DNA from: Naegleria gruberi
Taxonomy: Eukaryota
NCBI GenBank assembly: GCA_000004985.1
Contig: GG738894.1
Reading direction: 5' to 3' (one strand)
DNA: 64,000 nucleotides
Of the stretch, positions 17,527 to 50,320 are shown piece by piece; the first letter of the stretch is position 1; every line of letters starts with the position of its first letter. A model generated the notes under the pieces. It did no database searches. It saw only the letters and a program-made list of their open reading frames with translations, and was not told the DNA's origin. The translations under genes were made by a program, and so were the position numbers.

Positions 17527-18660
17527 CTAATAGCTCTCTGATTTGTTGAACTTATTTGCTCCCCACAGTAGTGAATTCTCATGATTTAGTCCTTGATCAC
17601 CAATTCTATTGCCACGAATATTAAGTGATGTTAATTGTTTCATTTCACTTATATATTTGGCTCCTTCTACACCAATTCGATTGCCACGAATATTAAGTGA
17701 TGTTAATTGTTTCATTTCACTAATGAATTTGACTTTGCCACAAATATTAAGTGATGTTAATTGTTTCATTTCACTAATGAATTTAGCTCCTTCATCACCA
17801 GTTCTATTGTAAGAAATATTAAGTGATGTTAATTGTTTCATTTCACTAATGTATTTGACTCCTTCTATACCAATTTCATTTTCAGAAATATTAAGTGATG
17901 TTAATTGTTTCATTTCACTAATGAATTTAGCTCCTTCTATACCAATGAGAGTGTAATAAATATTAAGTGATGTCAATTGTTTCATTCCACTTATATATTT
18001 GGCTCCTTCATCGCCAATTATATTGTAAGAAATATCAAGTGATGTTAATTGTTTCATTTCACTTATATATTTGGCTCCTTCATCGCCAATTTCATTTTCA
18101 CGAATATTAAGTGATATTAATTGTTTCATTTCACTGATATATTTAGCTCCTTCATCACCAATTACATTGTAAGAAATATTAAGTGATGTTAATTGTTTCA
18201 TTTCACTGATATATTTGGCTCCTTCTACACCAATTCGATTGCCACGAATATTAAGTGATGTTAATTGTTTCATTTCAGTTACGAATTTGAGTTGTTCTAT
18301 GGCTTCCAGCAAATTTGTTGAAAATTTAACATCAACAATACTATTCATAAACTGACTTTTCATGAATAATTCAACTCGTTTCTCTGTAATGTTGTTTTTA
18401 AATTGAATAACAAGTTTTGAACGTTCCTTGATCACATTAAAGAATTGTTTTGAAATTAAAGTACAATTATTTAAAATAAACCACGAATCATCAATCATGC
18501 AAATTATTTCAAAACAAATATCATCTGAAAATATTTCTTGTTCGAGTTTCACATGCTTTTTTACTTTCTCTTCCATATTATTATTATTATTGTTAGTGAA
18601 TATTTCCTCCGAATTAATTAATTGATGATTTTCAAAATCTTGTCTGTTTCGTTTGCTCAT
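17527..18660 (-). CDS. Leucine-rich repeat protein (RI/LRR_6-like 24-aa repeats) with an F-box-like N-terminal region
   Basis: ORF of 377 aa with ATG at 18660. It has about 10 tandem units of MKQLTSLNIxxNxIGxEGAKYISE. The N-terminal segment IFSDDICFEIICMIDDSWFILNNCTLISKQFFNVI is F-box-like. It is a paralogue of 49469-50320. Confidence 0.9.
   Translation of the reverse strand: MSKRNRQDFENHQLINSEEIFTNNNNNNMEEKVKKHVKLEQEIFSDDICFEIICMIDDSWFILNNCTLISKQFFNVIKERSKLVIQFKNNITEKRVELFMKSQFMNSIVDVKFSTNLLEAIEQLKFVTEMKQLTSLNIRGNRIGVEGAKYISEMKQLTSLNISYNVIGDEGAKYISEMKQLISLNIRENEIGDEGAKYISEMKQLTSLDISYNIIGDEGAKYISGMKQLTSLNIYYTLIGIEGAKFISEMKQLTSLNISENEIGIEGVKYISEMKQLTSLNISYNRTGDEGAKFISEMKQLTSLNICGKVKFISEMKQLTSLNIRGNRIGVEGAKYISEMKQLTSLNIRGNRIGDQGLNHENSLLWGANKFNKSESY
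17586..18273 (-). repeat. Tandem 72-bp (24-codon) coding repeat array of the LRR gene
   Basis: The near-identical string ttaagtgatgttaattgtttcatttcact recurs every 72 nt. One unit is shortened by 18 nt (protein ...LNICGKVKFISE). Confidence 0.9.
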
Positions 18661-18747
18661 TTTTTCTTGAGATTTAAATTCATGGGATTTACTTTGGTTA
18701 GAATTGTTGGCATTGTAATGTTAAATAACATTTTGAGAAAATGATAT

Positions 18748-20769
18748 CTACAATATTTCTCTTTGCATCATAATCAGTCCAAAAAGGACTTGATGCAGCA
18801 CTGATAGTTCAACTCGTTCTTGCAAACAGGTATCTCTGAATCGGATAGTCACAGTTGCATTCAATAAACTCTCTTCATCAATAGTGATGGCAATAGGAAT
18901 TCCAATTTCATCAGCACGTTTATATTTCTTTCCAATTGAGTGTGCACTTTCATCATGTTTGAAGGGAATGGAAAGAGTTCTTATAATTTTAGTAACCTTT
19001 TCTAGTACCATCTTTTCCTCATTAGTTTTGACTTTACAGTTAGAAACCAGTAATACCTTGATTGGAGCCAACTGACTTGGTAAAGAAAGAATAGGCCTTT
19101 CCTCATCTCGAGTCCAAAATACATGTTCCAATAAGCTCAATAATATTCTACTAACAGAAAATGAAAGATCAATGATGTGAGGAGTAATCTTTTCTCCATA
19201 AACTTTTTTCACACATTCCACAAACGAAATATCATCTTTGGATAATTGGAAATTCTTTCCATTGATATCAAGTGAGATTTTGTGGTTGGTTTCCAACTCT
19301 GTTTGATATTGAGATTTCTTCTCCTTAGATAGTCCACTAAGGTGCTCTAACAGTATTTTGGTATCATTCTTGTAACGTTTTCCAAGCTTTTGATGTGAAA
19401 ACTCCACAACTATTTCTCTCTCCTCAAGAGGTTCATCAAATGAATCAAATAGAGAGAGATCAGAGTTAGAATGTTGAGAATGTTGCAGCAAATCGTAACC
19501 TGCTTTGGATTGAACATTAACAACCTCTACCCAACCAATGGTTGTCAACACCTCACATGTCCACAACTGCTCCAATCTATATGAAAATTGTTTTCGAAAC
19601 CGTATTCCTTCACTCAAAAATCCACATTCCTCCATGAATTCTTGTGTTCTGGCAAGATAGTAAGCCAATGATTTGTTAGCTATGAATTCTTGTTCCGCAG
19701 CATCTTTGATCGAAATCTTGGTTTCTTCATCATTTGAATCTAAAAGCAATCTCACAATTACTTGCTCGACTTTCTTGGAGTACTTTTCACAATTATTTTT
19801 CTTTGCTCCATTGCAGAAATGCATTATTTTTGCGCTTGAATTTTCCCTCAGTTTCGAATAGTGGCCAGTAGTTGTAGAATTATCAAAAATGGACCCAACC
19901 TGTGCAACTGAAAAGGGTAACCGTTTTCCACCATATTCCCATAACCGCTTAATATTTGTGTAAACACCTTGATCGAGATCAGGTCTCAAATAAACACTTG
20001 TTCTACCTGTTACTCCAATTTGTGTTTTAATCGCAAACGTCCATTCAAATACTTCAGAAATTTGATTTCCATCCATACTCCTAATTCTAAACCTCTTAAT
20101 AATATTATTCATGGCACCACCATCATAAGAATGAAGATTTGCAAGAATTTCTCTGAAATGTTTGATTTGAACACTTGTTAATAAATCCTCGTTGCCCAGC
20201 TTTTCCTGTATGAAATCCTCAATAACTTTGGTGGCAAGAATGATCTTATCAGTCTTCATATCTTTCACAATAAATTCATTAAAAGGAAAAAAGAATCCAA
20301 AAGCTCTGTAAACTTCATCAAGTACAAGTGAGCTCGTTTCCATTTCCATCATTTCTTCCTCCAATACGAAATGTTTCCTCCATAATCCAATCACATTATT
20401 CTTCAAATTGCATCCCAAAGGACCTAAATCCACCAAACCACTCACTCCACCATAAATTTCGAATGACGGTAATACGAAACAATTTTTCAATAAACATGCC
20501 CTTAATAACTGATCATTGAAATGTAATTTACTCGATTCGGAACACTTCTTTGCAATTATTTTCAATTCCAAATTTAATAATTTAATTCTCTCCTCATCAC
20601 GATCGGAAGAAGAATTAAAATTTGATAATTGTTGTAATTTTTCTTTGAATAATTGATTAATAGCAATTCGTTCTTCTAATGTTGCAATTTTAGGTTGATT
20701 GTTGGTGGTAGTTGTCGAAGAAATTGCATTTTCCGTTGATGTGTTGTTGCCTATCTGATTGTTGATCAT
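18748..20769 (-). CDS. Glycyl-tRNA synthetase-like protein (class IIa aaRS paralogue with degenerate catalytic motifs)
   Basis: The first ATG is at 20769; the track start at 20790 is GTG. The protein is collinear with eukaryotic GlyRS from the N-terminal core (FEIYGGVSGLVDLGPLGCNLKNNVIGLWRKHF) through YLRPDLDQGVYTNIKRL to the anticodon-binding domain (LAPIKVLLVS..., SIGKKYKRADEIGIPIAITID). The motif 2, AHYAxDCWD and motif 3 equivalents are altered; see findings. Confidence 0.85.
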   Translation of the reverse strand: MINNQIGNNTSTENAISSTTTTNNQPKIATLEERIAINQLFKEKLQQLSNFNSSSDRDEERIKLLNLELKIIAKKCSESSKLHFNDQLLRACLLKNCFVLPSFEIYGGVSGLVDLGPLGCNLKNNVIGLWRKHFVLEEEMMEMETSSLVLDEVYRAFGFFFPFNEFIVKDMKTDKIILATKVIEDFIQEKLGNEDLLTSVQIKHFREILANLHSYDGGAMNNIIKRFRIRSMDGNQISEVFEWTFAIKTQIGVTGRTSVYLRPDLDQGVYTNIKRLWEYGGKRLPFSVAQVGSIFDNSTTTGHYSKLRENSSAKIMHFCNGAKKNNCEKYSKKVEQVIVRLLLDSNDEETKISIKDAAEQEFIANKSLAYYLARTQEFMEECGFLSEGIRFRKQFSYRLEQLWTCEVLTTIGWVEVVNVQSKAGYDLLQHSQHSNSDLSLFDSFDEPLEEREIVVEFSHQKLGKRYKNDTKILLEHLSGLSKEKKSQYQTELETNHKISLDINGKNFQLSKDDISFVECVKKVYGEKITPHIIDLSFSVSRILLSLLEHVFWTRDEERPILSLPSQLAPIKVLLVSNCKVKTNEEKMVLEKVTKIIRTLSIPFKHDESAHSIGKKYKRADEIGIPIAITIDEESLLNATVTIRFRDTCLQERVELSVLHQVLFGLIMMQREIL

Positions 20770-21627
20770 TTTTTTAATTTGTAATTTCACAACAAGTCAT
20801 CATGAAACAATCAAATTTGTGAAACTATCAAGAAGACGCACTTTCTGTGCAATTTAATCCAACCACTCAGTTTGTTAATCCCAATGAGTGGAATAAAAGA
20901 TTCATAACAGCTAATACATTGGCATTATAATCCAAAATAGTTCCAATAGATAATGCATTAAGAGTAGCTTAATATTTCAATTAAAATGTTTACAAAAGTA
21001 TACCAGTATTCATAAAGTTGGAAATTACCAGGATTCACTCCTTTCCAGTATGGTAGCATTTCTGGAAAGTAGTTAGATATGGAACGATGAATTAAAATTA
21101 TTAATTATCAAGGTTTTCGAGTGCAACCATGGCTGGATCAAAACCATTAGAAATGAAAGTATTAGACTCTAAATAAGAGGAAGTTAGTGTTACTTTTTCT
21201 ACATGAATTACAAGCAGATTTTAACAATCACGTTCCGAAACTTAATTCCAAATTTTAGGATGCTAGGTAGATAACCTACCAACTCGTATTTCCATGCAAC
21301 TAATTATTATTAATTCGTGATGATGTGTTGACTTCAATATTTGCTGCGTTTACGAATTTGAATTTGAAAAAACCCTTTCAACTTCCAACTTGTCGCCTCA
21401 AATTTACCAAATTAATCAAAATTCACTATCAACACAAATGTTGTATGGAAGGAACTTTGTATGAAAGATCAAAGATAACTCTCTGTGCAATTATTAATAG
21501 CTACCTGATAGAGGAAGTCAGGGAATTCAAAAGGTGGATCGATGAAAACTTCGTCTTGTATTTTTTCAAGTAAAAAACAAATACAAAAGATCTTCATCAA
21601 TTAATTATATTATTAATAATCATCAAA

Positions 21628-23097
21628 ATGCCAGCCAATGTCGGAACTAGAAGAAAATTGAATCCAAATCTTAAGAAGGGATATGTAGCTCCACCAGTTG
21701 AAGATCATATCATCATTGAAGAGGATCAAAAGCAAAAATCACAACAACAACAACCTGTAAAAACAAAGAAGCAACAACAACCAATTGCTAATACTTCATC
21801 ACCAGCAACCACTACTACCACTAACAAGGTTGTTACCAATGCAAATGTACCAACAACAACAACAACAACAGCACCAAAAGCAAAGAATGTAAAATCATCA
21901 TCAGAATCACGTTTTGAAAAGTACGAAAAACAACATGAAGCCTTCATCAAGCAAATGGAAACATTCATGAAGTCCTTCCTTGATTTTGAAAAGGAGAGAT
22001 TGGCCTTCATGAAAGAACAATTCGGATCAAAGAGTGTTGGCACAACCACCACTACACAAACAACTGTGGCCAACAATAAGAAGGATAACAAGACAATTAC
22101 AGCCACAACAACAACTACACCAACAAAAACTACAACTCCTCCTCCAACTAACACAACTGTTAAAACAACAACAGCAACAGCAGCAACTACTACTCCTAAG
22201 AAAAAGACAACAGAACCAACCACAACTCCACAAAATAATACCAATGTAACATCACCAAAATCAACCAAGAATGAAGCAGCAAAGAATAAGGATCCTGCTG
22301 TTGATGCTTCTCCAACTAAGCAACAAACCAAGAAGGCAACAACTACTACTAGCCCTACCACTACTGCCACTACCACCACTACAACTGTACCAACAAAGAT
22401 TAGAGAATTGACTGTAACAAAAGATGAAATTTTTGATAATCTCAAAGTTGTCTATGTGAGTGGTGAAAACATCAAGGCAATTGCCGAGGCTAATAAGGTA
22501 TTCGATACTTTGGAAAAGAAGGATGCTGTATATGGATTTGACATTTTGTGGAATGCAAAGGAGGAAAAGACAATTAACGAAAGCCCAACCGAAACTCACA
22601 TCCTTGTACCAATCAGACTCATCTTATTGGCTAATCATGACACTGTCTTTGTTTATAGACCTCCAACTGCCGAAGAGATGCTTGCTGAAAAGATTGATAG
22701 ACCTCTCCCAGTAGCTCTTTACAAAATTCTCACTCAAAATCAATGTGTCAAGGTTTCATTTAATGCTATTGAAAAGGTCAACTACTTGTACCATAATTTG
22801 AACACTACCTATGTTAGTCATGTATCTGATATCAACTCCCTTTTCGTGAAGGAACCATATGGTTCTGCATTGGATATGTTAAGTAAGGAATTGGAATTAC
22901 CAACAGAACAAGTTTCCAAAGAGCTCAAAATGAGACATAATATTAATTATAGCAAGGAGCTCAGTAATGGCCAACTTGTCACAGTTGCCAAGAGATGTTG
23001 GTTGGAATTAAGACTTGTTGAAAAATTCTCTGAAAAACAAAAAACCAAGACAAATCTATTTGACTTTGTGACCAAAAACATGAAAATTGAAGATTAA
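21628..23097 (+). CDS. Thr/Gln-rich low-complexity protein with a C-terminal 3'-5' exonuclease-like (WRN-exo/RNase D-type) fold, apparently non-catalytic
   Basis: ORF of 489 aa starting at an ATG. Long poly-T/K/P low-complexity tracts explain the antisense V-rich ORF 21726-22445. The C-terminal ~220 aa follow the exonuclease pattern by eye (AVYGFDILW...ILLANHDTVFVY...CVKVSFNAIEKVNYL...YSKELSNGQLVTVAKRCW). The CDS call is solid; the domain call is tentative. Confidence 0.65.
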   Translation: MPANVGTRRKLNPNLKKGYVAPPVEDHIIIEEDQKQKSQQQQPVKTKKQQQPIANTSSPATTTTTNKVVTNANVPTTTTTTAPKAKNVKSSSESRFEKYEKQHEAFIKQMETFMKSFLDFEKERLAFMKEQFGSKSVGTTTTTQTTVANNKKDNKTITATTTTTPTKTTTPPPTNTTVKTTTATAATTTPKKKTTEPTTTPQNNTNVTSPKSTKNEAAKNKDPAVDASPTKQQTKKATTTTSPTTTATTTTTTVPTKIRELTVTKDEIFDNLKVVYVSGENIKAIAEANKVFDTLEKKDAVYGFDILWNAKEEKTINESPTETHILVPIRLILLANHDTVFVYRPPTAEEMLAEKIDRPLPVALYKILTQNQCVKVSFNAIEKVNYLYHNLNTTYVSHVSDINSLFVKEPYGSALDMLSKELELPTEQVSKELKMRHNINYSKELSNGQLVTVAKRCWLELRLVEKFSEKQKTKTNLFDFVTKNMKIED

Positions 23098-23101
23098 ATT
23101 T

Positions 23102-24022
23102 TTACTTTTTCCTACAGACAACTCCCCAGTTATCTTTTTCGTAATACATATTCTTTACAAACTCAAAATCGAATGATTGAACTTTTTCTCCAGTTTGTGG
23201 ACAAGTTGTGAAGGATGCTTCTTCGACCAATTTTTCCAATTCTCCTTCTTTGAACAAGTGATAAAATCTCTTGTAGACCTTTTCTCCATCTTCTCCTTGA
23301 ATAAAGTTTTCAGCATTTTGAGCTGGTTTCTTATCAAATTGTTTTTGTAAATGCCAAGGTACAAAGACATCTTGTTGTGGATACCTGTAGGAAGGTGTTG
23401 AAGAATCTTGTGACTTTTTCTTTGATTGTTGCTCAAAAGCCCAAACATAGATTAAAACTTCACCTCCTTGTTTACAAACTCTGAATAATTCTCTAATGGC
23501 ATTCATTCTTCTTTCAGGTGTAGCAAAATGGTGAATGACAGCCACACTAATCACAACATCAAATTTTTCTGATTTAAATGGTAATCTAGTATTATCGGCA
23601 ACCATAACTTCCAAATCTCTTCCTTTACAAATTTCAGCAAGTCCATCACTAATATCAGTACCAATAAAACAATTACTAGTTGAAATTTTTGATAATTTGT
23701 TTCCTCTATTAAATTCAAGAGTTTCCTTCCATGATTGCATATATTTACCATTTCCGCATCCGATATCAGCAAACAAACAATTTTCCTTTCCGAGAATATA
23801 TTCATTAATAAATGGCCATCTAGAATATCTAGTATTTGAAAAGTGTGGAGCAATTTCATTATAAACTTGTGTTACAAATTGTTTTTCAAATTGATGTAAT
23901 TGCATAGAATCATTTTCAACAGTATTAATGACACGATTAGCATCCAATTCGGGATCAATTTGTTGTGCTGTTGTTGAAGAAGAGGAAGAGGCAGCAGATG
24001 ATGAAGATTCTTGTTCACTCAT
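23102..24022 (-). CDS. TRM9: tRNA (mcm5U34) methyltransferase, Trm9/ALKBH8-MT family
   Basis: ORF of 306 aa with ATG at 24022. It matches Trm9/ALKBH8 methyltransferase motifs closely: VYNEIAPHFSNTRYSRWPFI, FADIGCGNGKY, GTDIS, ISVAVIHHFATPERR, GGEVLIYVWAFEQ. Confidence 0.9.
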   Translation of the reverse strand: MSEQESSSSAASSSSSTTAQQIDPELDANRVINTVENDSMQLHQFEKQFVTQVYNEIAPHFSNTRYSRWPFINEYILGKENCLFADIGCGNGKYMQSWKETLEFNRGNKLSKISTSNCFIGTDISDGLAEICKGRDLEVMVADNTRLPFKSEKFDVVISVAVIHHFATPERRMNAIRELFRVCKQGGEVLIYVWAFEQQSKKKSQDSSTPSYRYPQQDVFVPWHLQKQFDKKPAQNAENFIQGEDGEKVYKRFYHLFKEGELEKLVEEASFTTCPQTGEKVQSFDFEFVKNMYYEKDNWGVVCRKK

Positions 24023-24535
24023 TTTTTAAAAAATTAAAATTAGAAAAATGCTTTTTCATAGATGTACAGATTTCTGGAATAATTTTTCAATCTATGTCGA
24101 TACTTGATGAACTTGTTATTGGATTGCAAGATAGGCGGAATGTTTGAATAATATCGTTCCATTCCAATGGGACAATTCAACGCTTGGTAAAATTTGCGTT
24201 AGCTTTGTTAAAATCTTATCCACGTGTGCTGTCCAGGTTTCCTTAATGGAGGGAGATGCAACCATTTTTCATAGTGTTTGTCCTTAAATCCTTATGTAGA
24301 ACTGCTTATTCATTTAAGGAGCAAAGAAAAATGCCTCATCGTCCAGGTTTGGGTAAATCACGCAAAAGCAGAGGGGCTTTGATGATGCCTCTTTGTTCTG
24401 AAATAGAAATTTAAACAGGCGCAAACACTCTCGAAAAAACCAACCAAACAACATTAAGCTGTGTTATATTTCAATTAAAACTGAGAGTATTGCTGATATC
24501 CAATAACCAAAAACTCAATACTTGAATTTCAAAGT

Positions 24536-25381
24536 ATGGACAATCGTTCAGCTTTTCTTGCCTCAGATTATTCAATTCTTCAACTTGTCCAAACAATGTT
24601 TCATGTCTTACTCCTCATAATTGCCAAAATACTTGATACACTATATAGCTCGTTTGTATTTGAGGTAGAGAGTATAAGCAACAATGGCTCCACCTCAATC
24701 ATAACAAATAGGAGAGGTAATTCTTCAGATAATATAACTGACGAAGACAATGATGATGAACCACCATTAAGCAAACAACACTCCAAGAGAGAACACATTA
24801 CATTTCAAACTCCTTCCTCTACACCATCATCGGATCTGAATCCAATCAGCAAACCTTCAAATCATCCATTAAGGCGAATGAGTAATTTGTTCTTCTTCAA
24901 CAATGACTCTATAGATACTAGGCTTGATGAATTAATAGATGATGATTCAATATTATGGAGGAAGAGAGCCATATCGGCGCCCTCTGATGTTTTGCCCAGC
25001 CCCTCAAACTCACCAGAAAGTAACACTAACAATGAGCAAAATGATAATATGATTTTAATTGAGGACACTCATAAACAATTATCAACATTGAACGAAGAAC
25101 AATATAGCGAACAACAACAACCAATTTTGACCACGAACGATGAGGCTCAACCAGCAATGAACATTATAGAAGAGCATTCTAGTAACAATTCAAAGAGAAG
25201 AGGATTCCTTACCAAATCATCTTCCACAAATACACCTCCTCAAAGAACAAAGCAAAAAACCTCCCCTACTACCAATGGATCATCATTTACTCCACCTCCT
25301 CTGGGAAAAGGCAATTCTTTTGTAGAGCTTCGAAAGCAATTAACAGAGTTTGAATTTCCAAAGAAAAAATCAGAGGATTAA
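24536..25381 (+). CDS. Hypothetical Ser/Asn/Thr-rich protein with an N-terminal hydrophobic segment
   Basis: ATG-initiated ORF of 281 aa. It has a hydrophobic stretch (ILQLVQTMFHVLLLIIAKIL) followed by low complexity. No domain was recognised. Confidence 0.5.
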   Translation: MDNRSAFLASDYSILQLVQTMFHVLLLIIAKILDTLYSSFVFEVESISNNGSTSIITNRRGNSSDNITDEDNDDEPPLSKQHSKREHITFQTPSSTPSSDLNPISKPSNHPLRRMSNLFFFNNDSIDTRLDELIDDDSILWRKRAISAPSDVLPSPSNSPESNTNNEQNDNMILIEDTHKQLSTLNEEQYSEQQQPILTTNDEAQPAMNIIEEHSSNNSKRRGFLTKSSSTNTPPQRTKQKTSPTTNGSSFTPPPLGKGNSFVELRKQLTEFEFPKKKSED

Positions 25382-25499
25382 ATTCAATTTTCAAAAAATC
25401 CTTATTCTCTTTCAGTTTCGTCAAGTTAGAGTTCCAATCCAGTTCCTTGTTCTTTGAAGTTTGAAATATAATTAAATTCAAAAAAATATCAATTATTCA

Positions 25500-26654
25500 A
25501 TGCAATACGATTCAGAAGAATTCATTCCTCCAGCCATTTCAATAGATATTGGTTCGGGTAGGTTTAAATGTGGCTTCTCTGGAGAAGAGGCTCCACTCTT
25601 TGACATGCCAACCATTTGTGGTAGAACTGCAACATCACCAATGCATTACTACAACGGTCACAGGACTACTGGCTACCAGGCTAAACCAGATAAACCCGAT
25701 GATAAATTCTTTGGTGAGGAGGTTCTCTTGCAAAGGAGTTACTTGACAATGAATTATTTCATTGAGAATGGAGTTGTAGTGAATTGGGATAATTATGAAT
25801 ATGCAATGCATCACATGCTCTATAAGAAAATGAAAGTTGAACCAGAATGTCATCCAGTGATATTGAATAGCCTGCCTCATAATCCAAGGGCTGATAAGGA
25901 AAAAGCAACACAGATCATGTTTGAAACATTCAATATACCAGCCATTTATTTTGCAAATTCAGCACAAATGGCATTGTTTGCCTCGGGGAGAACTTTTGGA
26001 GTTTCATTATTGTGTGGTGATGGAGTTTCATTGGTAGCTCCATTCACAGATGATCTCCGTGCCAACGATGTTTATAGAATGAATTTTGGTGGAAGAGATT
26101 TGAATGATTACTTATTGAAATTGGTCATGTCGAGAGGAAAATGTTCATTGACAGAATTTATTGGAAGGGAAGTCATGAGGGAAATTAAGGAAAGTGGCTA
26201 TTTCACATGTGACACCTCTGAGAAGATAACGAAAAAGTATTTTACTTTACCTGATGGATCCAGGATTGTCATGGAGGAGGAATTATTGGAATGTACAGAA
26301 CCATTATTTAATGTTGAATTGATTTCATCGAGTTTTCAATTTTCTGGTTTGCACGAAATGTTAAATCATTCCATTTCTAACATGCCAATTGAATATAGAA
26401 AAGATCTTTATTCGAATATAGTTCTCTCAGGAGGAACAACACTTTTCAATGGATTTAAGAAGAGATTGGAAAGTGAAATGGATTCCATCTCAAAATCAAA
26501 ACTTTCCATTATTGCTCCTTCTCAAAGAAACCATTCCATTTGGTTAGGTCAATCAATCTATAGCTCCCTAGAATCATTTCAATCCATATGGAAAACAAAG
26601 GAAGAATATGATGAATCGGGTCCAGGTGTTGTGTCACGAAGGCCTTGTTGGTAA
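25500..26654 (+). CDS. Divergent actin-like / actin-related protein
   Basis: The 384-aa ORF is collinear with actin: IDIGSGRFKCGFSGEEAP, NPRADKEKATQIMFETFNIPAIYFANSAQMALFASGRT, GGRDLNDYL, LPDG, IVLSGGTTLFNGFKKRLESE, WLGQSIYSSLESFQSIWKTKEEYDESG. Confidence 0.9.
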   Translation: MQYDSEEFIPPAISIDIGSGRFKCGFSGEEAPLFDMPTICGRTATSPMHYYNGHRTTGYQAKPDKPDDKFFGEEVLLQRSYLTMNYFIENGVVVNWDNYEYAMHHMLYKKMKVEPECHPVILNSLPHNPRADKEKATQIMFETFNIPAIYFANSAQMALFASGRTFGVSLLCGDGVSLVAPFTDDLRANDVYRMNFGGRDLNDYLLKLVMSRGKCSLTEFIGREVMREIKESGYFTCDTSEKITKKYFTLPDGSRIVMEEELLECTEPLFNVELISSSFQFSGLHEMLNHSISNMPIEYRKDLYSNIVLSGGTTLFNGFKKRLESEMDSISKSKLSIIAPSQRNHSIWLGQSIYSSLESFQSIWKTKEEYDESGPGVVSRRPCW

Positions 26655-27301
26655 AACAAGGTGCAACTTATTCTTGCCATATATTCTACAAAATCAGTAT
26701 TATCCTTACAGTAGTGATGATTGTAATTATGCAAGAAGGTAGTTGTCTTGCTCTCTTTATAGTGTAATTAGTGCCACGTTTGGTAGAGCAAGAATGGACC
26801 AAGGAAACAAAATACATTCGAAACAAGCCTATTGACTTTACCTCAATCAAAAAAAATTTTATTTCAGTGTAGCTGATCCCAATAGGATCATGAGGTATTA
26901 TCTTGAATTAAGAGAACCTCAATCAAAAAAAATGTTTTACTTCCTCATTAGCATGATCATGATTGTGTGGATCAATATTTCCATACAGCATTTCTTTATC
27001 CGAATCAGCGATATGTATCTGGGCTCTTTCTTTTCTGAAATCGTACCATGAAGAATTTCCAATAACACAATCCACCCATGAGGTTTGTTAACAACAAACT
27101 CAAAAATCAAAACAAGCCTTTTCATTACTTTCATCAATTCATCCATCAGAGAAGAAGTAAATAATCAAGTAGCAGAGAGAACAACAAATGAACATGTTCT
27201 TTAAATAGCCTTCATCAATTTAAAAAACCAAATAAAAAAACAAATCAAACTCATCAACAGCACCTACACCCACATATAATTTTTCATCACATATTATCAT
27301 C

Positions 27302-28170
27302 ATGTATATGCATAACTTGAGTAGAGTTATTACAATAATTCCAAATGATTCTGTGGAATTATTGTCGAATAATAGTAGTAATATCACGAATCAAAGTGCT
27401 ATTTCTGCTACTACCATTAATAATGGTGGAAATGTAATAAATAATGATGATTCGGATATTGATACATTGGTGGATGAAATTGTAAATGGAGAACAAGTGG
27501 ATGAATACTTTTTTAATTGTGCAGGTTTAATTTCGAATTTGGAATATGTTAAACAAGTGATAGAAAAGAAGAAAACTGGAAATTTGATTGATTTGGTTTG
27601 TTTCACATATGAATTTTTTATTGGAATGTTTTTGTGTTTTGGATATTTTTGAAAATAATTGAAAAATAGATGGGTAGGAATATATTACATCATGCCTGTA
27701 AATGGGGAAACTTGAATATTGTCCAATATGCCATTTCGAAAGGAGTTTCGGTTAATTTGAAAGATATCCATGGAAACACTCCAATTCACTTTTGTTGTGA
27801 GGAAGGTTATACTGATATTGTGACGTGTTTACTTCATCATCCAAATATTAAAGCAACATTGAAGAATAAGGTAAGAACAATCTCATTTCCATAACTAATA
27901 ATTCTTATGAAACCTTTCGAATAATTCTAAAATTTAGGACGGTGCAACACCAAAGAGAAAGGCTCAATATTCTGGCTATTCAAACGTAGTTCTCTTACTG
28001 GAAAGATATTTGGGCAATATTTATGTAAGTTGTTGAATATTTTCACAAATTTCGTTTCGAACTATTTTCATTAGCTGTTTAAGGAAAATTTGAAAAATCA
28101 AGTAATTGATGTTGAGGAAACTTATTCCAACTACAAATTGAGTGATATTTCAATAAGGATAGTTGATTAA
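27302..28170 (+). CDS. Ankyrin-repeat protein
   Basis: Exons are 27302-27595, 27670-27870, 27938-28024 and 28075-28170, with introns of 74, 67 and 50 nt (GTTTGT, GTAAGA, GTAAGT donors). ANK motifs are GRNILHHACKWGNLNIVQYAISKGVSVNLKDIHGNTPIHFCCEEGYTDIVTCLL and DGATPKRKAQYSGYSNVVLLLERYL. The last intron and exon are less certain; the alternative is a stop at 28034. Confidence 0.78.
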
Positions 28171-28382
28171 AAATTTAATTACCCTTTGATCTTATTTATT
28201 GTAAAAACATTACAATGAAGAGTTTCATTCTCCCAGAAGGGAAATATTGAAAAAATCTTTTTCCACTGACCACAGTATTGTTGTAATCAAGATCAGAGCG
28301 AACTCTAAAAGTCCATTGAATATATCGCCACCACCTTTCATCTTGTGAAAAATAATATCATCACAAAAAAACGAGTTTAGAG

Positions 28383-31300
28383 ATGGTTATTATTCGAAAG
28401 GTTTACTTGTCTAAACCTTGGTGGTTATTTGTGCTACTGTTTAGCTGCATCGTTTTCACAATACACAACAACAACCTTGTTCATTCTAAATCGCCTTCTC
28501 TATACATTCCACAAGTTTCGGATACAAGCCAGACTAATAACATTCCATCTTCTCTATCATCAACAAGTTCCACCTCATCGGATAAATGTAAAACAACTAA
28601 TCCCTTCATATTTTCCCTTCCTACACCATTCTTTCACTGGGCAGAATCGGATTTCAATAACATTGGTTCGAAAGCTTTTTATGAAAATAATTGTTTACAA
28701 ATTGAACAAGTAAATAGATATAATGGATATATTCCATATGATCAAGTCAAGAAATCTCTCACCACCACTTCGACAACATCTAATATTGCAGAATTTTTAA
28801 TCATTGACGATTATTCACTTTTCAAATTGTGGAAAGACAATATTACAAACTTCAAGCTCATTTCACAATTTGCCAAATCAACGAATCTAATTCTAATGTC
28901 CAAGAAGGAAAAACAAATTACATCGATGAGAGATTTGAAAAATAAGAAGGTTGCTGTTTGTCAACATCATTTGGAATATTTGATTTATGAATTATATAAA
29001 CTAGGAATGAGTTTGAGTGATATTAAATATGAGATTGTAAATTATGACCTCATGTATATGAGGGTTTTATATGAAGATATTGATGCATACTTTGTGGATG
29101 ATCGATACATTTTCACACAAGTGAGAAAGACAACTACAACTCTTTATTATCCTAGAGAGTTTAATATTATTGAATCATCACTCAATTATACAAAGGATGG
29201 AATCAACATGTTCAGATATGGTATTATTGTGAAAGATAATCCAAGTGTTAGTGGGCTTGAAGAAATTACAAGAAGATTCTTACTGACACAAACTCAAATG
29301 TACACCTTTTGTAGAGATAATCCTTTGGAGTGTTTTGAAAGATGGGTCGTCTATGATTACATGATTGATAATTTGAACAATTTATTGTGGCCTTCTATTG
29401 ATGGTTTTGGAAATATTAGTAGAGTTTCAATTACAAATTCAATGTCTATATATTTGGGAAGAAATCCAACTTCAACAGAATCAAAAATATTTATCAACCA
29501 GTTTGTCAATTCAACCATAATGGATGAGATTATTTCGAATTGTACTGATAATTTGTGTACAGGCATAGATGGATCTGTATTGAATATTACAGGACTTGCC
29601 TATTCAGATGCAACTCCAACATTTTGTGAGGATTACATATTCCCATATCCACTCTCTTGTAAGAGATATTACTTGTACTTTAGATTGTACTGCTCATTTG
29701 TTCCATTCCTTATTGGTTCCCTAATTAATTTGATATTTGCTGTCATTGTTCCATTCATGAGAAGTGAACACTTGATGAAGCATCGTTTCATAGCCCCATT
29801 TGTAACACCAGTTTGCTTTTCAGGATTTTTACTCTTCTCTGCTATATTATTTTGCAGGTTTTCCTATTTTCCTGAGAATGTCATTTACGGTTTGGCAAGT
29901 GCCTGTATCGTTACAGTTATTATTACACGTTCCATGAATGTGATTCGTTACTTTTATGTGAGAAATATGTTCAAGCTCATGAAAAAGAGGAATAAGAATG
30001 AAAATAATGGATCAGCATACAATTTCTCAATGAAAGAAGATAAGGAAGTATTGGATAGGAATATTCGGTTTCACAGAGTTGCAGCATCCAAATTGGTCTT
30101 TGTTATTATTTGGATAGTACTGGTAGTACTTATTGCTCCGTCATTTTTCATAGCTCAATACTATGCTCCGGAGAATTATATTATAAGAAATGGAATTTCC
30201 ATTATTGTCTATGTATTGGCAACATTTTTCATGGTTTTCCTCTTTATTTTTGATTTGATTGTTAATAGAAAGAGATTGAAAAAGAGAGGTTTCATTTCCT
30301 TCATTCTATTCGACGATCCACTATTGTACAGATTGGAATTATTATTGTGTGGGTTTGAATTGATTTCAATTGTTTGGATTTCTCTCAGTGATTACTATGT
30401 CTATAACATTGCTGCCTTCTCTGCACAAGCTGTTGGTTTCCTTTCTTTGGGCCTTTCTGGTGCTGTAACATGGTCTTATGGATTTGCAGCAGCTGTCATT
30501 CTCTATAGACGTGGCAAGAAGTTTATCATGTCCAAAGTTTATAGAAGAAGAGCAATGAAAAGTAATTCAAACCTCTCTACAGAATTGAGTGGAAGTGCAA
30601 TCCAAGCTGATTTCTTGGAAAAGTTAATTGAAAATGATGATTTTTATTCTCTTCTTGAAGGTATGTTATAGATTGAATAGTTACGAATTTAATGCTTGTA
30701 TAGATTATGCTAAGAAGGAATTCTCATCGGAAAATCTCTTCCTTTACAATGTAAGTTTTCATTAACTCAATCCTCATTTACATGTTCAATCTTTTTGGCA
30801 ATAGATACTGAGACAATATAGAAAAAGGAGAGAACTCTACATTTCGGATTTACTGTTCATTTACAATAATTATGTAAAGAATTATTCACCATTTGAAGTG
30901 AACGTCTCCTCTGAAACTAAGAAGAGCGTTAGAGAAATTCTCTACACTTACCATATGATTGAGTCAGCAACTTCTAAAGACAGATTCTCTAAAAGAATCA
31001 CCCAATTTCCAACAGATATTTTCCCAAATTATGATTCATTCTCGGGAGCTACTCCTTATCAGGCCTTTGATGATGTTCATTCATCGCCAAAACTTGCAAG
31101 TAAGGCGACCATGCCACCTTCATTTCAGAATAACAACTCTCCAATGATGGGTCGATTTAAAGATAGTTTCAGAAAGCTATCATCTGTTTCAGATAGTGAA
31201 GCAAGTAGGGGGGATGATCTTGTTGGAGATGACGCAGATATAGGATCAGATCAAAGCAGAACTCCTAGAAGAAGTACTGTAAGTGGAGGGGGACCAGTTA

Positions 31301-31449
31301 TTCCATTCAATCAAATTCAAGCACTTTACAATGATGTTACACAGAATGTTATGGATACTTTCAGTAGATTATGTGAAACGAGTGAATATCAGCAATGGGA
31401 ATCCCTTAATAATATGGCATTGTTCATCTCCAATAAGGAATTGGCTTGA
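28383..31449 (+). CDS. Seven-transmembrane RGS-domain receptor with an extracellular solute-binding-protein-like domain (7TM-RGS, copy 1)
   Basis: Exons are 28383-30660, 30704-30750 and 30805-31449, with introns of 43 and 54 nt (GTATGT and GTAAGT donors) and phases checked. The N-terminus is signal-like (WWLFVLLFSCIVFTI). The ectodomain carries a type-2 PBP pattern (ITSMRDLKNKKVAVCQHHLEYLIYELYKLGMSLSDIKYEIV...YEDIDAYFVDD). Seven hydrophobic helices follow. The RGS box appears only after splicing (FYSLLE|DYAKKEFSSENLFLYN|ILRQYRKRRELYISDLLFIYNNYVKNYSPFEVN...). Confidence 0.85.
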
Positions 31450-31587: not shown

Positions 31588-31660
31588 CGCCCCACGTGGG
31601 GCTCGAACCCACGACCGTTGGATTAAAAGTCCAACGCTCTACCGACTGAGCTAGCAGGGC
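31588..31660 (-). tRNA. tRNA-Lys-UUU: tRNA-Lys (anticodon UUU)
   Basis: The reverse complement is GCCCTGC TA GCTC AGTCGGTA GAGC G TTGGA CTTTTAA TCCAA CGGTC GTGGG TTCGAGC CCCAC GTGGGGC G. This folds into a full 73-nt cloverleaf. The acceptor stem has two G-U pairs, the T-loop is canonical and CCA is not encoded. Confidence 0.97.
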
Positions 31661-46624: not shown

Positions 46625-46793
46625 TGTGTGAATTTTTATTGTTGTTGAAATAATTAAATTGGAAGTGTGAAGGACAAAACCAATCCAAAGATTACTGTGG
46701 AAGAGGAAATAGAGCGTTCTTTTAGGAGATAATTTGATCATTCTTTTATTATATTTCACAACTATATTGAAGGAACATCATGTGATGACCCAC

Positions 46794-49061
46794 TTAAAAG
46801 TCATATAATTCATTTTCCTTTTGAAGTTCTGTGAGTTTGAGCCACTTTTTGTACTCTGCTGTTTCCTCAAGTCTAGAAAAGGTATCAGATACATTCTTAA
46901 TGACTTCAAAGATGAGGATTTCTCTCAATTCAGAGTAAGGGATTGAGTTTGCAGTTGGTGTTTGCTCACAAACTTGTTTCTTCTCTTCAAACCATTTGTA
47001 AAATGCCTTTTTAGTAGAGTTTGGAAAATTGACCTCAAACTTGGAATAATTTCTCATATAGAGCTCTTCAATTTGGGCAGCCTGTTCGAAAGTTAAGAAT
47101 GAATCTGCAGAATTGACGAGGGAACTTGAACTAAATGTTCGTGAGGTTCTTGAATTGGATGTAGGCAATGAGTCAGTAGATGCTCCCATACTTGATTTCG
47201 ATCTATCATTACCTGAAGATGGGCTTTTCTTATTCTCCAATGATATTAACATTTCATATAACATTACATTTTCAATTGAAAATTCCTTCTTTGCAAACTT
47301 TCTCAATAATTTCATCAAATTCACATCTTCCAATCTGGATTCCAATGTTCTCTTTCCTTTTGGTTCATTGCCTCTGTTTGAAGAAAGTAATTTACTTATT
47401 TTTCTATAAATTTCAATAATCATTGCACTTCCACCAAGAATTAAATAACAAGTCAATGAAAATAGAACTGTCAATACTCCAATGGCAAATTGATTATTAT
47501 ACACTAACAGGGTGATAATTGTGAGTACGAGGAGTAAAAATATGAGTAACAAGTCTATCTTGATATAGAACGGATCATCAAAGAAAAAGTAGTAGTATAT
47601 TCCTTTCTTTTTGATCTTTCTTCGATTTCCAATCATATCCAATAGCAAGAATATTAAACCAATTACAATACATAGAATAATGACAGCACCAAGAGGTGCA
47701 TTTCTGAAATATCCCAAATAGGAAGTAAGGTAAACTTCTTTTTCTAGTATCATGAGAACCGAAGCTCCAAGAGGAATAAAAGGTACTGTTACACTTGTAA
47801 CTAATCCTAACCACTTCTTTCCCAAAAACTTGAAAAATTTGAAATGATCAGATTTTGAAATTATTGTAAACAAATTTCTCAGATAGAAATATCTCACAAC
47901 TGTTATAAAATACAGGAATACAGGATACATTACAACTGCATTGGCTATTCCATTATACAATCGAGTGCAATTGGCAGTAAATACCATAATCTGGAAAATG
48001 TTTCGCATAATAACAAAGAGTGGGCAAAGGTATGGAACAGCCAATCTAATTTTGATGGATTTAGTATTAAATGTCAATAACAGACCAATATAGTAGATAC
48101 ATAGAAAAAAAATTGCATAAACACCTTGGATTTCTTCATATTTAACAGGTTCAAAGGCACAGGTGGAGGATGAACATTCATATACTTCACTGTTCATGTA
48201 AGAAAGGGTGATATTGGAGATTCCAATACTTGAAATTGTTTCGTTTGTATACAATGTGATTTGAGGGTAACTGCTTTGAAGATATTTCACAAAATTATTA
48301 AATTCGAAACTAGAATTTGATAGAGAAATTTTTGATGACCTAAACAGACAATAATCGTGATTCAAATAACATGAAGTACGGTAAGAATCCCCTTTCACTT
48401 CTTCTCTGCACAATCTAATTAATGAATCACATGTTGTAGTGAAGTTGTTAAAATAATCAGTGACACATGAGATTTGGTTTTGATCTAGACTGTTGGAATA
48501 TGAAAAGAACAATGGTGCCAATCTCACAACATTTAAATCTTCAACCTGTAGGTATCTACCTAGCTTGTTATTTCCTCTAATCAACCTCAAAACCTTTGGC
48601 ATTTCTCTGTCAGTTGTTATGATAATTGGACCTTCATTTGATGACCAATAATCAACAAGAATACTTCCAAACACGCAATCAGAGTTGATTCTAACAGCTG
48701 AAAGAATGGAAATAGGTTTGATATCAGCATATGCAGAAGTTGAAATATTATAAATTTCTAATAATGTGTTAAAGGAACTTTCTAATATTTTCAATCGTTG
48801 GTCGGAAACTGAGTAAAAATCAGAATTTGGAGTAAATAGAATGATTCTCTTGTTTTCAAATAGTGATCTTGGTGTAGTAGTTGAATAACCTTTAAGAGCT
48901 ATTGCAATAATAGTTTCATTGGACGAAACTATCTGAATTGGTTGTTGACCATAAATTTCCTTCAATTGACCAATACTCGCTGTCTTTAACCCACAACTAC
49001 AAATCACACAGTGTAGTTGAACTAAACACAACACCAATGAAATCGTAAAGCTGATGTGCAT
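46794..49061 (-). CDS. Seven-transmembrane RGS-domain receptor (7TM-RGS, copy 2; intronless paralogue)
   Basis: The first ATG is at 49061 (MHISFTISLVLCLVQLHCVICS, signal-like); the track start at 49100 is GTG. It has a ~300-aa ectodomain, seven hydrophobic helices and an RGS box (LRKFAKKEFSIENVMLYEML ... YMRNYSKFEVNFPNSTKKAF). It shares family-specific motifs with copy 1: RYFY(V/L)RN, NR(K/R)(R/K)(L/I)KK(R/K)G..F(L/F)FDDP and the C-terminal DTFSRL.ET.EY..W. Confidence 0.85.
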   Translation of the reverse strand: MHISFTISLVLCLVQLHCVICSCGLKTASIGQLKEIYGQQPIQIVSSNETIIAIALKGYSTTTPRSLFENKRIILFTPNSDFYSVSDQRLKILESSFNTLLEIYNISTSAYADIKPISILSAVRINSDCVFGSILVDYWSSNEGPIIITTDREMPKVLRLIRGNNKLGRYLQVEDLNVVRLAPLFFSYSNSLDQNQISCVTDYFNNFTTTCDSLIRLCREEVKGDSYRTSCYLNHDYCLFRSSKISLSNSSFEFNNFVKYLQSSYPQITLYTNETISSIGISNITLSYMNSEVYECSSSTCAFEPVKYEEIQGVYAIFFLCIYYIGLLLTFNTKSIKIRLAVPYLCPLFVIMRNIFQIMVFTANCTRLYNGIANAVVMYPVFLYFITVVRYFYLRNLFTIISKSDHFKFFKFLGKKWLGLVTSVTVPFIPLGASVLMILEKEVYLTSYLGYFRNAPLGAVIILCIVIGLIFLLLDMIGNRRKIKKKGIYYYFFFDDPFYIKIDLLLIFLLLVLTIITLLVYNNQFAIGVLTVLFSLTCYLILGGSAMIIEIYRKISKLLSSNRGNEPKGKRTLESRLEDVNLMKLLRKFAKKEFSIENVMLYEMLISLENKKSPSSGNDRSKSSMGASTDSLPTSNSRTSRTFSSSSLVNSADSFLTFEQAAQIEELYMRNYSKFEVNFPNSTKKAFYKWFEEKKQVCEQTPTANSIPYSELREILIFEVIKNVSDTFSRLEETAEYKKWLKLTELQKENELYDF

Positions 49062-49371
49062 GTTTTTTTGACTTTTCGTTTGGCAAATCTCACATGTCAC
49101 GTTTCATTGGTAAACATCTTTAAAGGAAACTTTGGTTAAGCTCATGCGTTCATTGCAATTAAATCTCAAGTAAACGGTTCTAGAATCGAGTTGCAAGAAT
49201 ATTCATTTCAAGAAATGAGAAGATTTTAATCTATCCATTGAATGGATGGTTTTATGCCTTCTGCATACGAAGGAATAGGAAGTGATTTTGAACTTGCAAT
49301 TGTTCTCGAATTTTATTCTAAACAATTTCCTGAAACATTCATCAATAGTGTGTTTTCTAAATGAATGTAAT

Positions 49372-49415
49372 GGGGTGTAGCTCACATGGTAGAGCACTTC
49401 TTTAGCATGGAATCC
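49372..49415 (+). pseudogene. tRNA-Ala(AGC)-derived relic (5' two-thirds only)
   Basis: GGGGTG TA GCTC ACATGGTA GAGC A CTTCT TTAGCAT GGAAT reproduces the acceptor 5' strand, the D-arm and an anticodon arm with an AGC anticodon loop (4 of 5 stem pairs). The following sequence has no T-arm (no GGTTCGA) and no 3' acceptor strand. Confidence 0.5.
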
Positions 49416-49468
49416 ACACATGAGCCAAAGTCGGAAGAAAAAGAGTAAAAAACACTAATTTAAAAAAA

Positions 49469-50320
49469 ATGAGTAAACTTAACAGACAAGATTTTGAAAA
49501 TCATCAATTCATTAATTCGGAGGAAATATTCACTAACAATAATAATAATAATAATATAGAAGAGAAAGTAAAAAAGCATGTAAAACTCGAACAAGAAATA
49601 TTTTCAGATGATATTTGTTTTGAAATAATTTCAATGATTGATGATTCGTGGTTTATTTTAAATAATTGTACTTTAATTTCAAAACAATTCTTTAATGTGA
49701 TCAAGGAACGTTCAAAACTTGTTATTCAATTTAAAAAAAAATTTACAGAGAAACGAGTTGAAATATTAAAGAAAAGTCAATTTATGAATAGTATTGTTAA
49801 TCTTAAATTTTCAACAAATTTGTTTGACTATTTTGAAGAAGCAAAATTTATAAGTGAAATGAAAGAATTAACATCGCTTAATATTAATGGCAATGTAATT
49901 GGTGCAGAAGGAGCAAAATTCATCAGTGGAATGAAACAATTGACATCACTTAATATTTCTTACAATGTAATTGGTGATAAAGGAGCTAAATTGATAAGTG
50001 AAATGAAACAGTTAATATCAATTAATATTTCTTACAATAGAATTTGTGGTGAAGGAGCTAAATTCATAAGTGAAATGAAACAATTGACATCACTTAATAT
50101 TGCTAACAATTCAATTGGCGATACAGGAGCTAAATTCATCAGTGGAATGAAAGAATTAACATCACTTGATATATATAATAATAGAATTGGCAGAGAAGGA
50201 GCAAAATACATTAGTGAAATGAAACAATTGACATCACTTGATATTGGTGGCAATCAAATTGGTGATGAAGAAGTAAAATTGATAAGTGAAATGAAACAAT
50301 TGACATCACTAAGAAAATAA
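49469..50320 (+). CDS. Leucine-rich repeat protein, inverted paralogue of 17527-18660
   Basis: ATG-initiated ORF of 283 aa. The first ~115 aa are almost identical to the other copy (MSK.NRQDFENHQ.INSEEIFTNNNNNN..EEKVKKHVKLEQEIFSDDICFEII.MIDDSWFILNNCTLISKQFFNVIKERSKLVIQFK). About 7 LRR units of 24 aa follow. Confidence 0.9.
   Translation: MSKLNRQDFENHQFINSEEIFTNNNNNNNIEEKVKKHVKLEQEIFSDDICFEIISMIDDSWFILNNCTLISKQFFNVIKERSKLVIQFKKKFTEKRVEILKKSQFMNSIVNLKFSTNLFDYFEEAKFISEMKELTSLNINGNVIGAEGAKFISGMKQLTSLNISYNVIGDKGAKLISEMKQLISINISYNRICGEGAKFISEMKQLTSLNIANNSIGDTGAKFISGMKELTSLDIYNNRIGREGAKYISEMKQLTSLDIGGNQIGDEEVKLISEMKQLTSLRK
49859..50317 (+). repeat. Tandem 72-bp coding LRR repeat array (copy 2)
   Basis: The unit gaaatgaaacaattgacatcacttaatatt recurs with a 72-nt period. 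Confidence 0.85.

What the first reader, a model, noticed from the sequence alone, without database searches (positions are those of the whole stretch)
17527..50320. Mirror-image arrangement of head-to-head LRR / 7TM-RGS gene pairs flanking ~31 kb
On the right arm, 7TM-RGS copy 2 (minus, ATG 49061) and LRR copy 2 (plus, ATG 49469) are divergently transcribed from a 407-bp spacer. On the left arm, LRR copy 1 (minus, ATG 18660) and 7TM-RGS copy 1 (plus, ATG 28383) are in the inverted order, also head-to-head, but separated by 9.7 kb carrying six unrelated genes. The two LRR genes are nearly identical over their first ~350 nt; even their antisense track ORFs 18428-18625 and 49504-49704 match. They therefore form inverted repeats bounding the intervening segment. 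This fits an ancient inverted duplication of a two-gene module followed by insertion or loss. The near-identical inverted LRR 5' regions are also a substrate for inversion of the ~31-kb segment or for gene conversion.
Basis: partly seen in the sequence, partly recalled or inferred. Interest (0 to 1): 0.55.

Follow-up and report, generated by a model that had tools for sequence, protein, structure and literature searches.

The report
Inverted LRR paralogs, unrelated RGS neighbours
Two similar leucine-rich-repeat genes do face each other across 31 kb of this Naegleria gruberi scaffold, but they are ordinary members of a scattered gene family, and the receptor genes beside them are only distant cousins, so the "mirror-image gene pairs" are most likely a coincidence.

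Summary
The window is a Naegleria gruberi scaffold. An 847-nt inverted repeat (17822-18665 / 49464-50310, 87.4% identical) consists of two intact F-box-like/LRR genes. Both neighbours are signal-peptide + ectodomain + 7TM + RGS proteins; copy 1 has three exons.

The two 7TM-RGS proteins share 23% identity over 282 aa. At least five N. gruberi paralogs on other scaffolds are closer to one or other copy than the two copies are to each other, and they were never sisters in 200 bootstraps. Copy 1 has an N. lovaniensis orthologue in conserved microsynteny with no LRR gene within 10 kb.

The LRR pair is young (dS 0.13-0.38). Its homology starts 5 nt before the ATG, with no flank homology. A third family member on another scaffold is equally close. 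N. gruberi is reported to have 229 RGS genes, so a chance adjacency is plausible.

What remains is an ordinary inverted paralog pair. It could support gene conversion or inversion, but neither was tested. Interest is low.

The parts
17527..18660 (-). LRR copy 1: intact 377-aa ORF with an F-box-like N-terminal domain (about 120 aa) and about 10.7 LRR units of 24 residues (72 nt), RI/GALA-type (LRR_6). It starts 87 bp downstream of the stop of the synthetase-like gene on the same strand.
   Evidence: (PF13516 LRR_6, 1.2e-45). No protein of 90% identity or more in the 5.8-billion-protein collection and no exact record, so it is apparently missing from the published gene set.
49469..50320 (+). LRR copy 2: intact 283-aa ORF with the same N-terminal domain and about 6.5 LRR units. 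It ends inside the repeat array, 51 bp from the convergent EF-2 stop codon.
   Evidence: (LRR_6, 4.4e-28). Absent from the protein collection.
17822..18665 (.). Left arm of the inverted repeat. It covers the coding sequence of copy 1 plus 5 nt upstream of the ATG.
   Evidence: 847 aligned nt at 87.4% identity, and no homology beyond 5 nt upstream of the ATG.
49464..50310 (.). Right arm of the inverted repeat.
28383..31449 (+). 7TM-RGS copy 1: three exons (28383-30660, 30704-30750, 30805-31449), 989 aa. It has a signal peptide, an NMT1/THI5-like (periplasmic-binding-protein-like) ectodomain, a 7TM region, and an RGS domain with a long insert.
   Evidence: NMT1, 22.6 bits; RGS, 30.2 bits. Orthologue: N. 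lovaniensis P0124, 46% identity over 1000 aa.
46794..49061 (-). 7TM-RGS copy 2: single exon, 755 aa (= NAEGRDRAFT_71988, EFC40214.1). It has a signal peptide, an ectodomain that shows no similarity to that of copy 1 in BLASTP, a 7TM region, and a divergent RGS with a Ser-rich insert.
49062..49468 (.). 407-bp divergent spacer between 7TM-RGS copy 2 and LRR copy 2. It has no homology to the region upstream of LRR copy 1.
18661..28382 (.). 9.7-kb segment between LRR copy 1 and 7TM-RGS copy 1, holding six unrelated genes. Two of them (the methyltransferase and the 489-aa unknown) also lie next to the copy 1 orthologue in N. lovaniensis.

Best explanation
The mirror-image pattern is a coincidence between two large multigene families of Naegleria gruberi. 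It is not a duplicated two-gene module. Shown: the inverted repeat is a pair of paralogous F-box-like/LRR genes from a subfamily whose members at 66% identity or more were found only in N. gruberi, on at least six other scaffolds. Their similarity covers the coding sequence only and is recent. The two 7TM-RGS genes are deep paralogs of a large heterolobosean receptor-RGS family, with different ectodomains. Each is closer to genes elsewhere in the genome, and in other genera, than to the other. Inferred: the LRR copy arose, or was last homogenised, by DNA-level ectopic recombination or gene conversion among family members. This would explain why homology stops at the edges of the ORF and why the 72-nt repeat units are about as similar out of register as in register. 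By their domains, the LRR proteins are probably substrate adaptors of SCF-type ubiquitin ligases, and the 7TM-RGS proteins are ligand-regulated GTPase-accelerating receptors for G-alpha subunits. Nothing links the two functionally. The inverted arms could still mediate further gene conversion or, rarely, inversion of the 30.8-kb block.
For: The window is N. gruberi: 100% match to EFC40214.1. RGS pair: 23% identity over 282 aa, 60 bits. The family is large, with 525 representatives at E<=1e-3, including N. gruberi P0131, P0136, P0143, P0144 and P0277 on other scaffolds. Copy 2 scores 244, 169, 173 and 176 bits to P0131, P0136, P0143 and P0140 (the cluster representative of N. gruberi P0277). 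Copy 1 scores 107 bits to P0144. Copy 2 ranks 88/144 in copy 1's list. In the NJ tree, copy 1 groups with N. lovaniensis P0124 at 100%, and a copy1+copy2 clade appeared in 0/200 bootstraps. LRR pair: dS is 0.127 (N-terminal part) and 0.376 (LRR part), with dN/dS about 0.4. Even word-size-7 blastn found no flank homology. P0005 on a 395-kb scaffold is 83% and 85% identical to the two copies in the N-terminal domain, against 84% between them. The copy1+copy2 node had only about 52% bootstrap support. Fifteen annotated N. gruberi relatives lie on 14 scaffolds, none of them this one. Synteny: N. lovaniensis keeps the methyltransferase and the 489-aa unknown next to the copy 1 orthologue, and has no LRR gene within 10 kb either side. 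There is no LRR gene near N. lovaniensis P0130 either. Base rate: 229 RGS genes are reported in N. gruberi (PMC5784254). With about 15,700 genes (my own recollection of Fritz-Laylin et al. 2010), any given gene has an RGS gene as an immediate neighbour about 3% of the time.
Against: Two members of each family within 33 kb, in mirrored order, is still somewhat unusual. An ancient module duplication followed by continuing LRR gene conversion, together with many later RGS duplications and translocations, is not strictly excluded. In the unrooted NJ tree, copy 2 attaches near the branch leading to the copy 1 clade, so tree topology alone is weaker evidence than the BLAST ranks. The deep nodes are poorly supported. 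The non-adjacency argument assumes that GenBank accession order follows gene order. Unannotated LRR genes, like these two, would be missed by it.
Confidence: 0.82

Rival explanations
1. An ancestral head-to-head LRR/7TM-RGS module was duplicated in inverted orientation long ago. The left copy was later split by insertion of 9.7 kb, and the LRR genes were kept similar by gene conversion while the RGS genes diverged.
For: Mirrored order and orientation. The pattern of LRR identity is compatible with conversion: a 104-nt perfect run and lower dS in the N-terminal part.
Against: The RGS copies are not sisters, and many genes in N. gruberi, N. lovaniensis and Willaertia are closer to each copy. Their ectodomains show no similarity in BLASTP. 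Two of the six genes in the 9.7-kb gap also lie beside the copy 1 orthologue in N. lovaniensis, where no LRR gene is present, so that part of the gap is old rather than inserted. An LRR paralog on another scaffold is equally close.
Confidence: 0.05
2. A local inverted duplication of the LRR gene alone (DNA-level, recent) placed a copy 31 kb away. The RGS genes are bystanders. This is a sub-case of the best explanation: the two LRR genes would be true sisters, rather than independent arrivals or conversion partners.
For: Physical proximity on one scaffold. Weak NJ grouping of copy1+copy2, about 52%. dS 0.13-0.38.
Against: No flank homology at all, although a duplication of that age should leave intergenic DNA 70-88% identical. 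P0005, on another scaffold, is equidistant.
Confidence: 0.3
3. Functional coupling. LRR copy 2 and 7TM-RGS copy 2 share a bidirectional promoter because the F-box/LRR adaptor regulates turnover of the receptor-RGS.
For: Only the 407-bp divergent spacer. In Willaertia magna, one 7TM-RGS ORF (P0002) carries an F-box/LRR N-terminus and sits beside an F-box/LRR gene.
Against: No recurrence of adjacency among the family members tested. The Willaertia case looks like a very recent chimera: aa 240-663 are 100% identical to P0126, which has the normal ectodomain. It also involves a different LRR subfamily. Short divergent spacers are the norm in this compact genome, as seen across the window.
Confidence: 0.04

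Closest known systems
F-box/LRR substrate-receptor proteins with 24-residue RI/GALA-type repeats (eukaryotic FBXL-like proteins; Ralstonia GALA effectors)
   Same: An N-terminal F-box-like helix motif followed by a 24-aa 'IGxEGAKxIS-MKQLTSLNI' repeat. The family profile hits the GALA protein structure 9j7j_A at 2e-50 and designed LRRs at 7e-59. Pfam LRR_6 matches at 1e-45. The paralog P0014 passes the Pfam F-box threshold (21.1 against 20.5 bits) at the homologous position.
   Different: The two window proteins themselves give no Pfam F-box hit. Skp1 binding is untested. The subfamily members at 66% identity or more were seen only in N. gruberi.
7TM-RGS receptor GAPs (Arabidopsis AtRGS1 type; reported in many 'bikonts' and in Trichomonas)
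   Same: Seven hydrophobic segments followed by a cytoplasmic RGS domain. The architecture is already described across eukaryotes (PMC3971589).
   Different: The Naegleria proteins have a signal peptide and a 300-430-aa ectodomain. The ectodomain is NMT1/THI5-like in copy 1 and in Willaertia P0126. The RGS domain is split by long low-complexity inserts. GAP activity is untested.
Inverted paralogous repeats as substrates for non-allelic homologous recombination or gene conversion
   Same: Two inverted arms of about 850 nt flank 30.8 kb, with a 104-nt perfect block.
   Different: Overall identity is only 87%. No evidence of inversion polymorphism could be obtained.

Membership tests
LRR_6 / RI-like leucine-rich repeat proteins | Tandem 24-residue LRR units matching Pfam PF13516 | tested here: met
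   150.4 bits (copy 1) and 95.5 bits (copy 2) against a cut-off of 23.4. The 72-nt period is visible.
F-box proteins (SCF substrate receptors) | An F-box domain of about 40 residues recognised by PF00646/PF12937 | tested here: inconclusive
   No hit for either window copy, even at E<=10. The homologous segment of paralog P0014 scores 21.1 bits (cut-off 20.5), and the Willaertia N-terminus scores 19.2 bits.
F-box proteins (SCF substrate receptors) | Binding to Skp1 | not testable with these tools
   Needs a biochemical or yeast two-hybrid assay.
7TM-RGS proteins | RGS domain (PF00615) C-terminal to the membrane region | tested here: met
   Copy 1, spliced: 30.2 bits against a cut-off of 23.9. 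Copy 2: only 16.2 bits, after manual removal of its insert. However, it aligns over nearly its full length with P0130, P0129 and P0131, which carry RGS at 34.2, 30.4 and 22.6 bits.
7TM-RGS proteins | Seven transmembrane helices | tested here: met
   Kyte-Doolittle scan with a 19-aa window. Copy 2 has 7 segments (313-543) plus a signal peptide. Copy 1 has 6 clear segments; a seventh, weaker one around residues 680-705 is my own reading of the sequence and fell below the scan threshold. No dedicated topology predictor was available.
7TM-RGS proteins | GTPase-accelerating activity on a G-alpha subunit | not testable with these tools
   Needs a biochemical assay.
   RGS: (rank 88/144; 0/200 bootstraps). 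LRR: unresolved three-way split with P0005.
   The LRR genes are 80% identical at the protein level (dS 0.13-0.38), against 23% for the RGS genes. There is no spacer or flank homology.
   No LRR gene at the N. lovaniensis copy 1 locus or at the P0130 locus. The Willaertia adjacency involves a different LRR subfamily, in tandem orientation, and a recent chimera.

The most novel reading that the evidence does not exclude
The two inverted LRR genes mediate a polymorphic, recombination-driven inversion of the 30.8-kb block. The block carries two receptor-RGS genes, a receptor-type cyclase and a patatin-like lipase. An inversion would swap the promoters and 3' repeat arrays of the two LRR genes between strains or cell lineages of N. 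gruberi.
Probability: 0.06. Interest if true: 0.4.

Novelty: new member of a known kind. Interest (0 to 1): 0.12.

Why it matters
It matters little beyond annotation. The result removes a tempting but false case of a conserved LRR/7TM-RGS gene module. It also shows that apparent mirror symmetry in a genome with hundreds of RGS genes and many LRR genes needs a family-wide phylogeny before it is interpreted. Two by-products may be useful. First, two intact F-box-like/LRR ORFs appear to be missing from the published N. gruberi protein set. Second, 7TM-RGS copy 1 now has a corrected three-exon model that restores its RGS domain.

Tried and rejected
(1) I tried to fetch N. gruberi DNA around paralogs and around window genes, to test recurrence of adjacency and inversion polymorphism. 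No N. gruberi gene I looked up is on record in the contig index, so both tests were impossible. As a proxy I used GenBank accession order.

(2) I first took Willaertia P0002 for an orthologue of copy 2 with a meaningful LRR link. I rejected this. Its TM-RGS part is 100% identical to P0126, which has a normal ectodomain, so P0002 is a recent chimera or an assembly or annotation artefact.

(3) The tRNA-like string in the 407-bp spacer (about 49376-49420) was not confirmed by ARAGORN or Rfam, even at E<=1.

(4) Retroposition as the origin of the coding-sequence-only LRR copy is disfavoured. Copy 2 is truncated at the 3' end, not the 5' end, and has no poly(A) remnant.

(5) Assembly artefact is rejected. 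The arms differ at 13% of sites and have unique flanks.

(6) A Biopython bootstrap tree of the RGS family timed out and was redone with a faster script. The support values printed may be partly misassigned after rerooting, so I rely on the pairwise identities for the LRR three-way split.


Full report
Source and layout. The window is a Naegleria gruberi scaffold of about 500 kb. The ORF 46794-49061(-) is 100% identical to EFC40214.1 / NAEGRDRAFT_71988. Positions 1-9860 are N. The rest is gene-dense at about 34% GC.

Gene order, from ORFs and Pfam, is:
- EGF/kinase, 15087-17111 (+)
- LRR copy 1, 17527-18660 (-)
- aminoacyl-tRNA-synthetase-like gene, 18748-20790 (-)
- 489-aa unknown (+)
- methyltransferase (-)
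- 281-aa unknown (+)
- actin-like gene (+)
- ankyrin gene (+)
- 7TM-RGS copy 1, 28383-31449 (+)
- tRNA-Lys (-)
- 483-aa unknown (+)
- receptor-type cyclase (+)
- patatin-like gene (-)
- PBP-like gene (+)
- trypsin-like gene (-)
- 7TM-RGS copy 2, 46794-49061 (-)
- LRR copy 2, 49469-50320 (+)
- EF-2, 50372-52936 (-)

Check of the observation. The inverted repeat is real. Arms 17822-18665 and 49464-50310 align over 847 nt at 87.4% identity. The many other inverted and direct hits in the same intervals are out-of-register matches of a 72-nt (24-aa) LRR unit. Identity is about 92% over the first 380 columns and 84% in the LRR array. There is a 104-nt perfect block at 49634-49737 / 18498-18395, longer than in any of 5000 random placements of the mismatches. 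The proteins are 80% identical. The stated distances (407 bp, 9.7 kb, six genes) and the matching antisense ORFs are correct. The antisense ORFs are a trivial by-product of the DNA identity.

Both RGS genes encode a signal peptide, an ectodomain, a 7TM region and an RGS domain. Copy 1 needs two short introns (30661-30703 and 30751-30804) to reach its RGS domain, which then passes the Pfam threshold. Copy 2's RGS is weak on its own, but it is homologous to relatives that pass the threshold.

One correction is needed. LRR copy 1 starts 87 bp downstream of the synthetase-like gene on the same strand. Only the right-hand pair is therefore a true adjacent head-to-head pair.

Are the RGS genes a duplicated pair? 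No. They share 23% identity over 282 aa (60 bits), plus a 40-aa C-terminal match. They have no DNA similarity, and their ectodomains show no similarity.

A profile search of 1.84 billion representative proteins found 525 family members at E<=1e-3. Those that could be named include N. gruberi genes on five other scaffolds, and several from N. lovaniensis, N. fowleri and Willaertia magna. Copy 2 scores 287 bits to N. lovaniensis P0130, 251 bits to Willaertia P0129, and 244 bits to N. gruberi P0131, the first two including the ectodomain. Copy 1 scores 869 bits to N. lovaniensis P0124 and 107 bits to N. gruberi P0144. Copy 2 ranks 88th of 144 in copy 1's list.

In an NJ tree of 397 TM-RGS columns, copy 1 groups with P0124 in 100% of replicates, and the two window genes were never exclusive sisters in 200 replicates. 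Proteins from other genera are closer to each copy than the copies are to each other. Their split therefore predates the Naegleria-Willaertia divergence; this is an inference that assumes roughly clock-like rates.

Are the LRR genes a unique pair? Not demonstrably. Neither ORF is in the protein collection. The best hits are N. gruberi proteins of 68-80% identity on other scaffolds. In the unique N-terminal domain, copy 1 and copy 2 are 84% identical, while P0005 (EFC42596, on a 395-kb scaffold) is 83% and 85% identical to them. The tree is an unresolved three-way split. Fifteen annotated N. gruberi relatives lie on 14 scaffolds.

Divergence is recent. dS is 0.13 in the N-terminal part and 0.38 in the LRR part, with dN/dS about 0.4. 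For comparison, RGS copy 1 and its N. lovaniensis orthologue are only 46% identical at the protein level.

Homology begins 5 nt before the ATG and ends inside the LRR array. Word-size-7 blastn finds nothing in the 500-bp upstream or 300-bp downstream flanks. A segmental duplication of that age should have left recognisable flanks. The copied or homogenised unit is therefore the coding sequence alone, and it does not include the neighbouring RGS gene.

Synteny. In N. lovaniensis, the copy 1 orthologue keeps the methyltransferase and the 489-aa gene upstream, as a small two-gene inversion. Beyond them lie BTB and RasGEF genes. No LRR family member is detectable within 10 kb on either side. The P0130 locus likewise has none.

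In Willaertia, P0002 sits beside an F-box/LRR gene and carries an F-box/LRR N-terminus. However, residues 240-663 are 100% identical to P0126, which has the usual NMT1-like ectodomain. The LRR belongs to another subfamily, and the genes are in tandem orientation. This looks like a very recent chimera, not a conserved module.

Elsewhere in N. gruberi, LRR and 7TM-RGS family members that share a scaffold differ by 22, 102 and 177 GenBank accessions, so they are not neighbours if accession order follows gene order.

Base rate. N. gruberi is reported to have 229 RGS genes (PMC5784254) and 44 G-alpha subunits (PMC8584482). With about 15,700 genes in about 41 Mb (my recollection of Fritz-Laylin et al. 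2010), any gene has an RGS neighbour about 3% of the time. A 54-kb window holds two or more RGS genes about 4% of the time, which is tens of windows per genome. One adjacent LRR-RGS pair, and a second RGS gene 16 kb from the first, are therefore unremarkable. This is a rough estimate, not a measured genome-wide statistic.

Conclusion. What is present is an ordinary inverted pair of recently duplicated or converted F-box-like/LRR genes, from a gene family scattered across N. gruberi scaffolds. They lie among unrelated genes that happen to include two deep paralogs of the very large RGS repertoire. The arms remain a possible substrate for gene conversion (weak signs: heterogeneous dS, the 104-nt perfect block, homogenised repeat units) or for inversion (untested).

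The 7TM-RGS architecture is already known across eukaryotes (PMC3971589). The LRR type matches RI/GALA-like 24-residue repeats.

Noticed in passing
window 17527-18660 and 49469-50320: Both LRR ORFs are intact with dN/dS about 0.4. Neither has a match of 90% identity or more in a collection that includes the NCBI N. gruberi proteome, so they appear to be unannotated genes.
   Followed up: partly
window 28383-31449: 7TM-RGS copy 1 needs two short GT-AG introns (30661-30703, 30751-30804) to join its 7TM exon to the RGS domain. Its ectodomain hits Pfam NMT1/THI5-like (a periplasmic-binding-protein fold), as does Willaertia P0126. This suggests a ligand-binding-domain + 7TM + RGS receptor class in Heterolobosea.
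   Followed up: partly
L001 10001-11992 (Willaertia magna JBEGDK010000072.1): P0002 is a single ORF joining an F-box/LRR N-terminus (35% identical to the neighbouring gene at L001 6501-8132) to a TM-RGS part that is 100% identical to P0126 on another contig. It is a very recent chimeric gene or an assembly artefact.
   Followed up: partly
window 49376-49420: The string GGGGTGTAGCTCACATGGTAGAGCACTTCTTTAGCATGGAA in the divergent spacer resembles, from my own memory, the 5' two-thirds of a tRNA-Ala(AGC). ARAGORN and Rfam did not call it, so at most it is a degenerate fragment.
   Followed up: yes
window 31588-31660 (-) and 56822-56940 (-): A tRNA-Lys(UUU) gene lies just downstream of 7TM-RGS copy 1. 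A full-length 5S rRNA gene (96.9 bits) lies between an F-box gene and an unknown ORF.
   Followed up: no
window 57502-57578 and 58885-58965: An 81-nt direct repeat (89% identical) flanks the unknown 369-aa ORF 57661-58770(-). It could mark the ends of a mobile or duplicated element.
   Followed up: no
window 21628-24022 vs L002 4650-7994: The methyltransferase and 489-aa gene pair is inverted as a unit, relative to the RGS gene, between N. gruberi and N. lovaniensis. Actin-like and ankyrin genes were detected only in N. gruberi. This shows rapid micro-rearrangement.
   Followed up: partly
window 17584-17735 vs 18141-18293: Within LRR copy 1, the last two repeat units are 91.5% identical to the first two. 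This is higher than between neighbouring units and indicates recent intragenic repeat duplication or conversion.
   Followed up: no
window 1-9860: The first 9860 positions are N, either an assembly gap or padding. Nothing can be said about genes to the left of 9861.
   Followed up: yes
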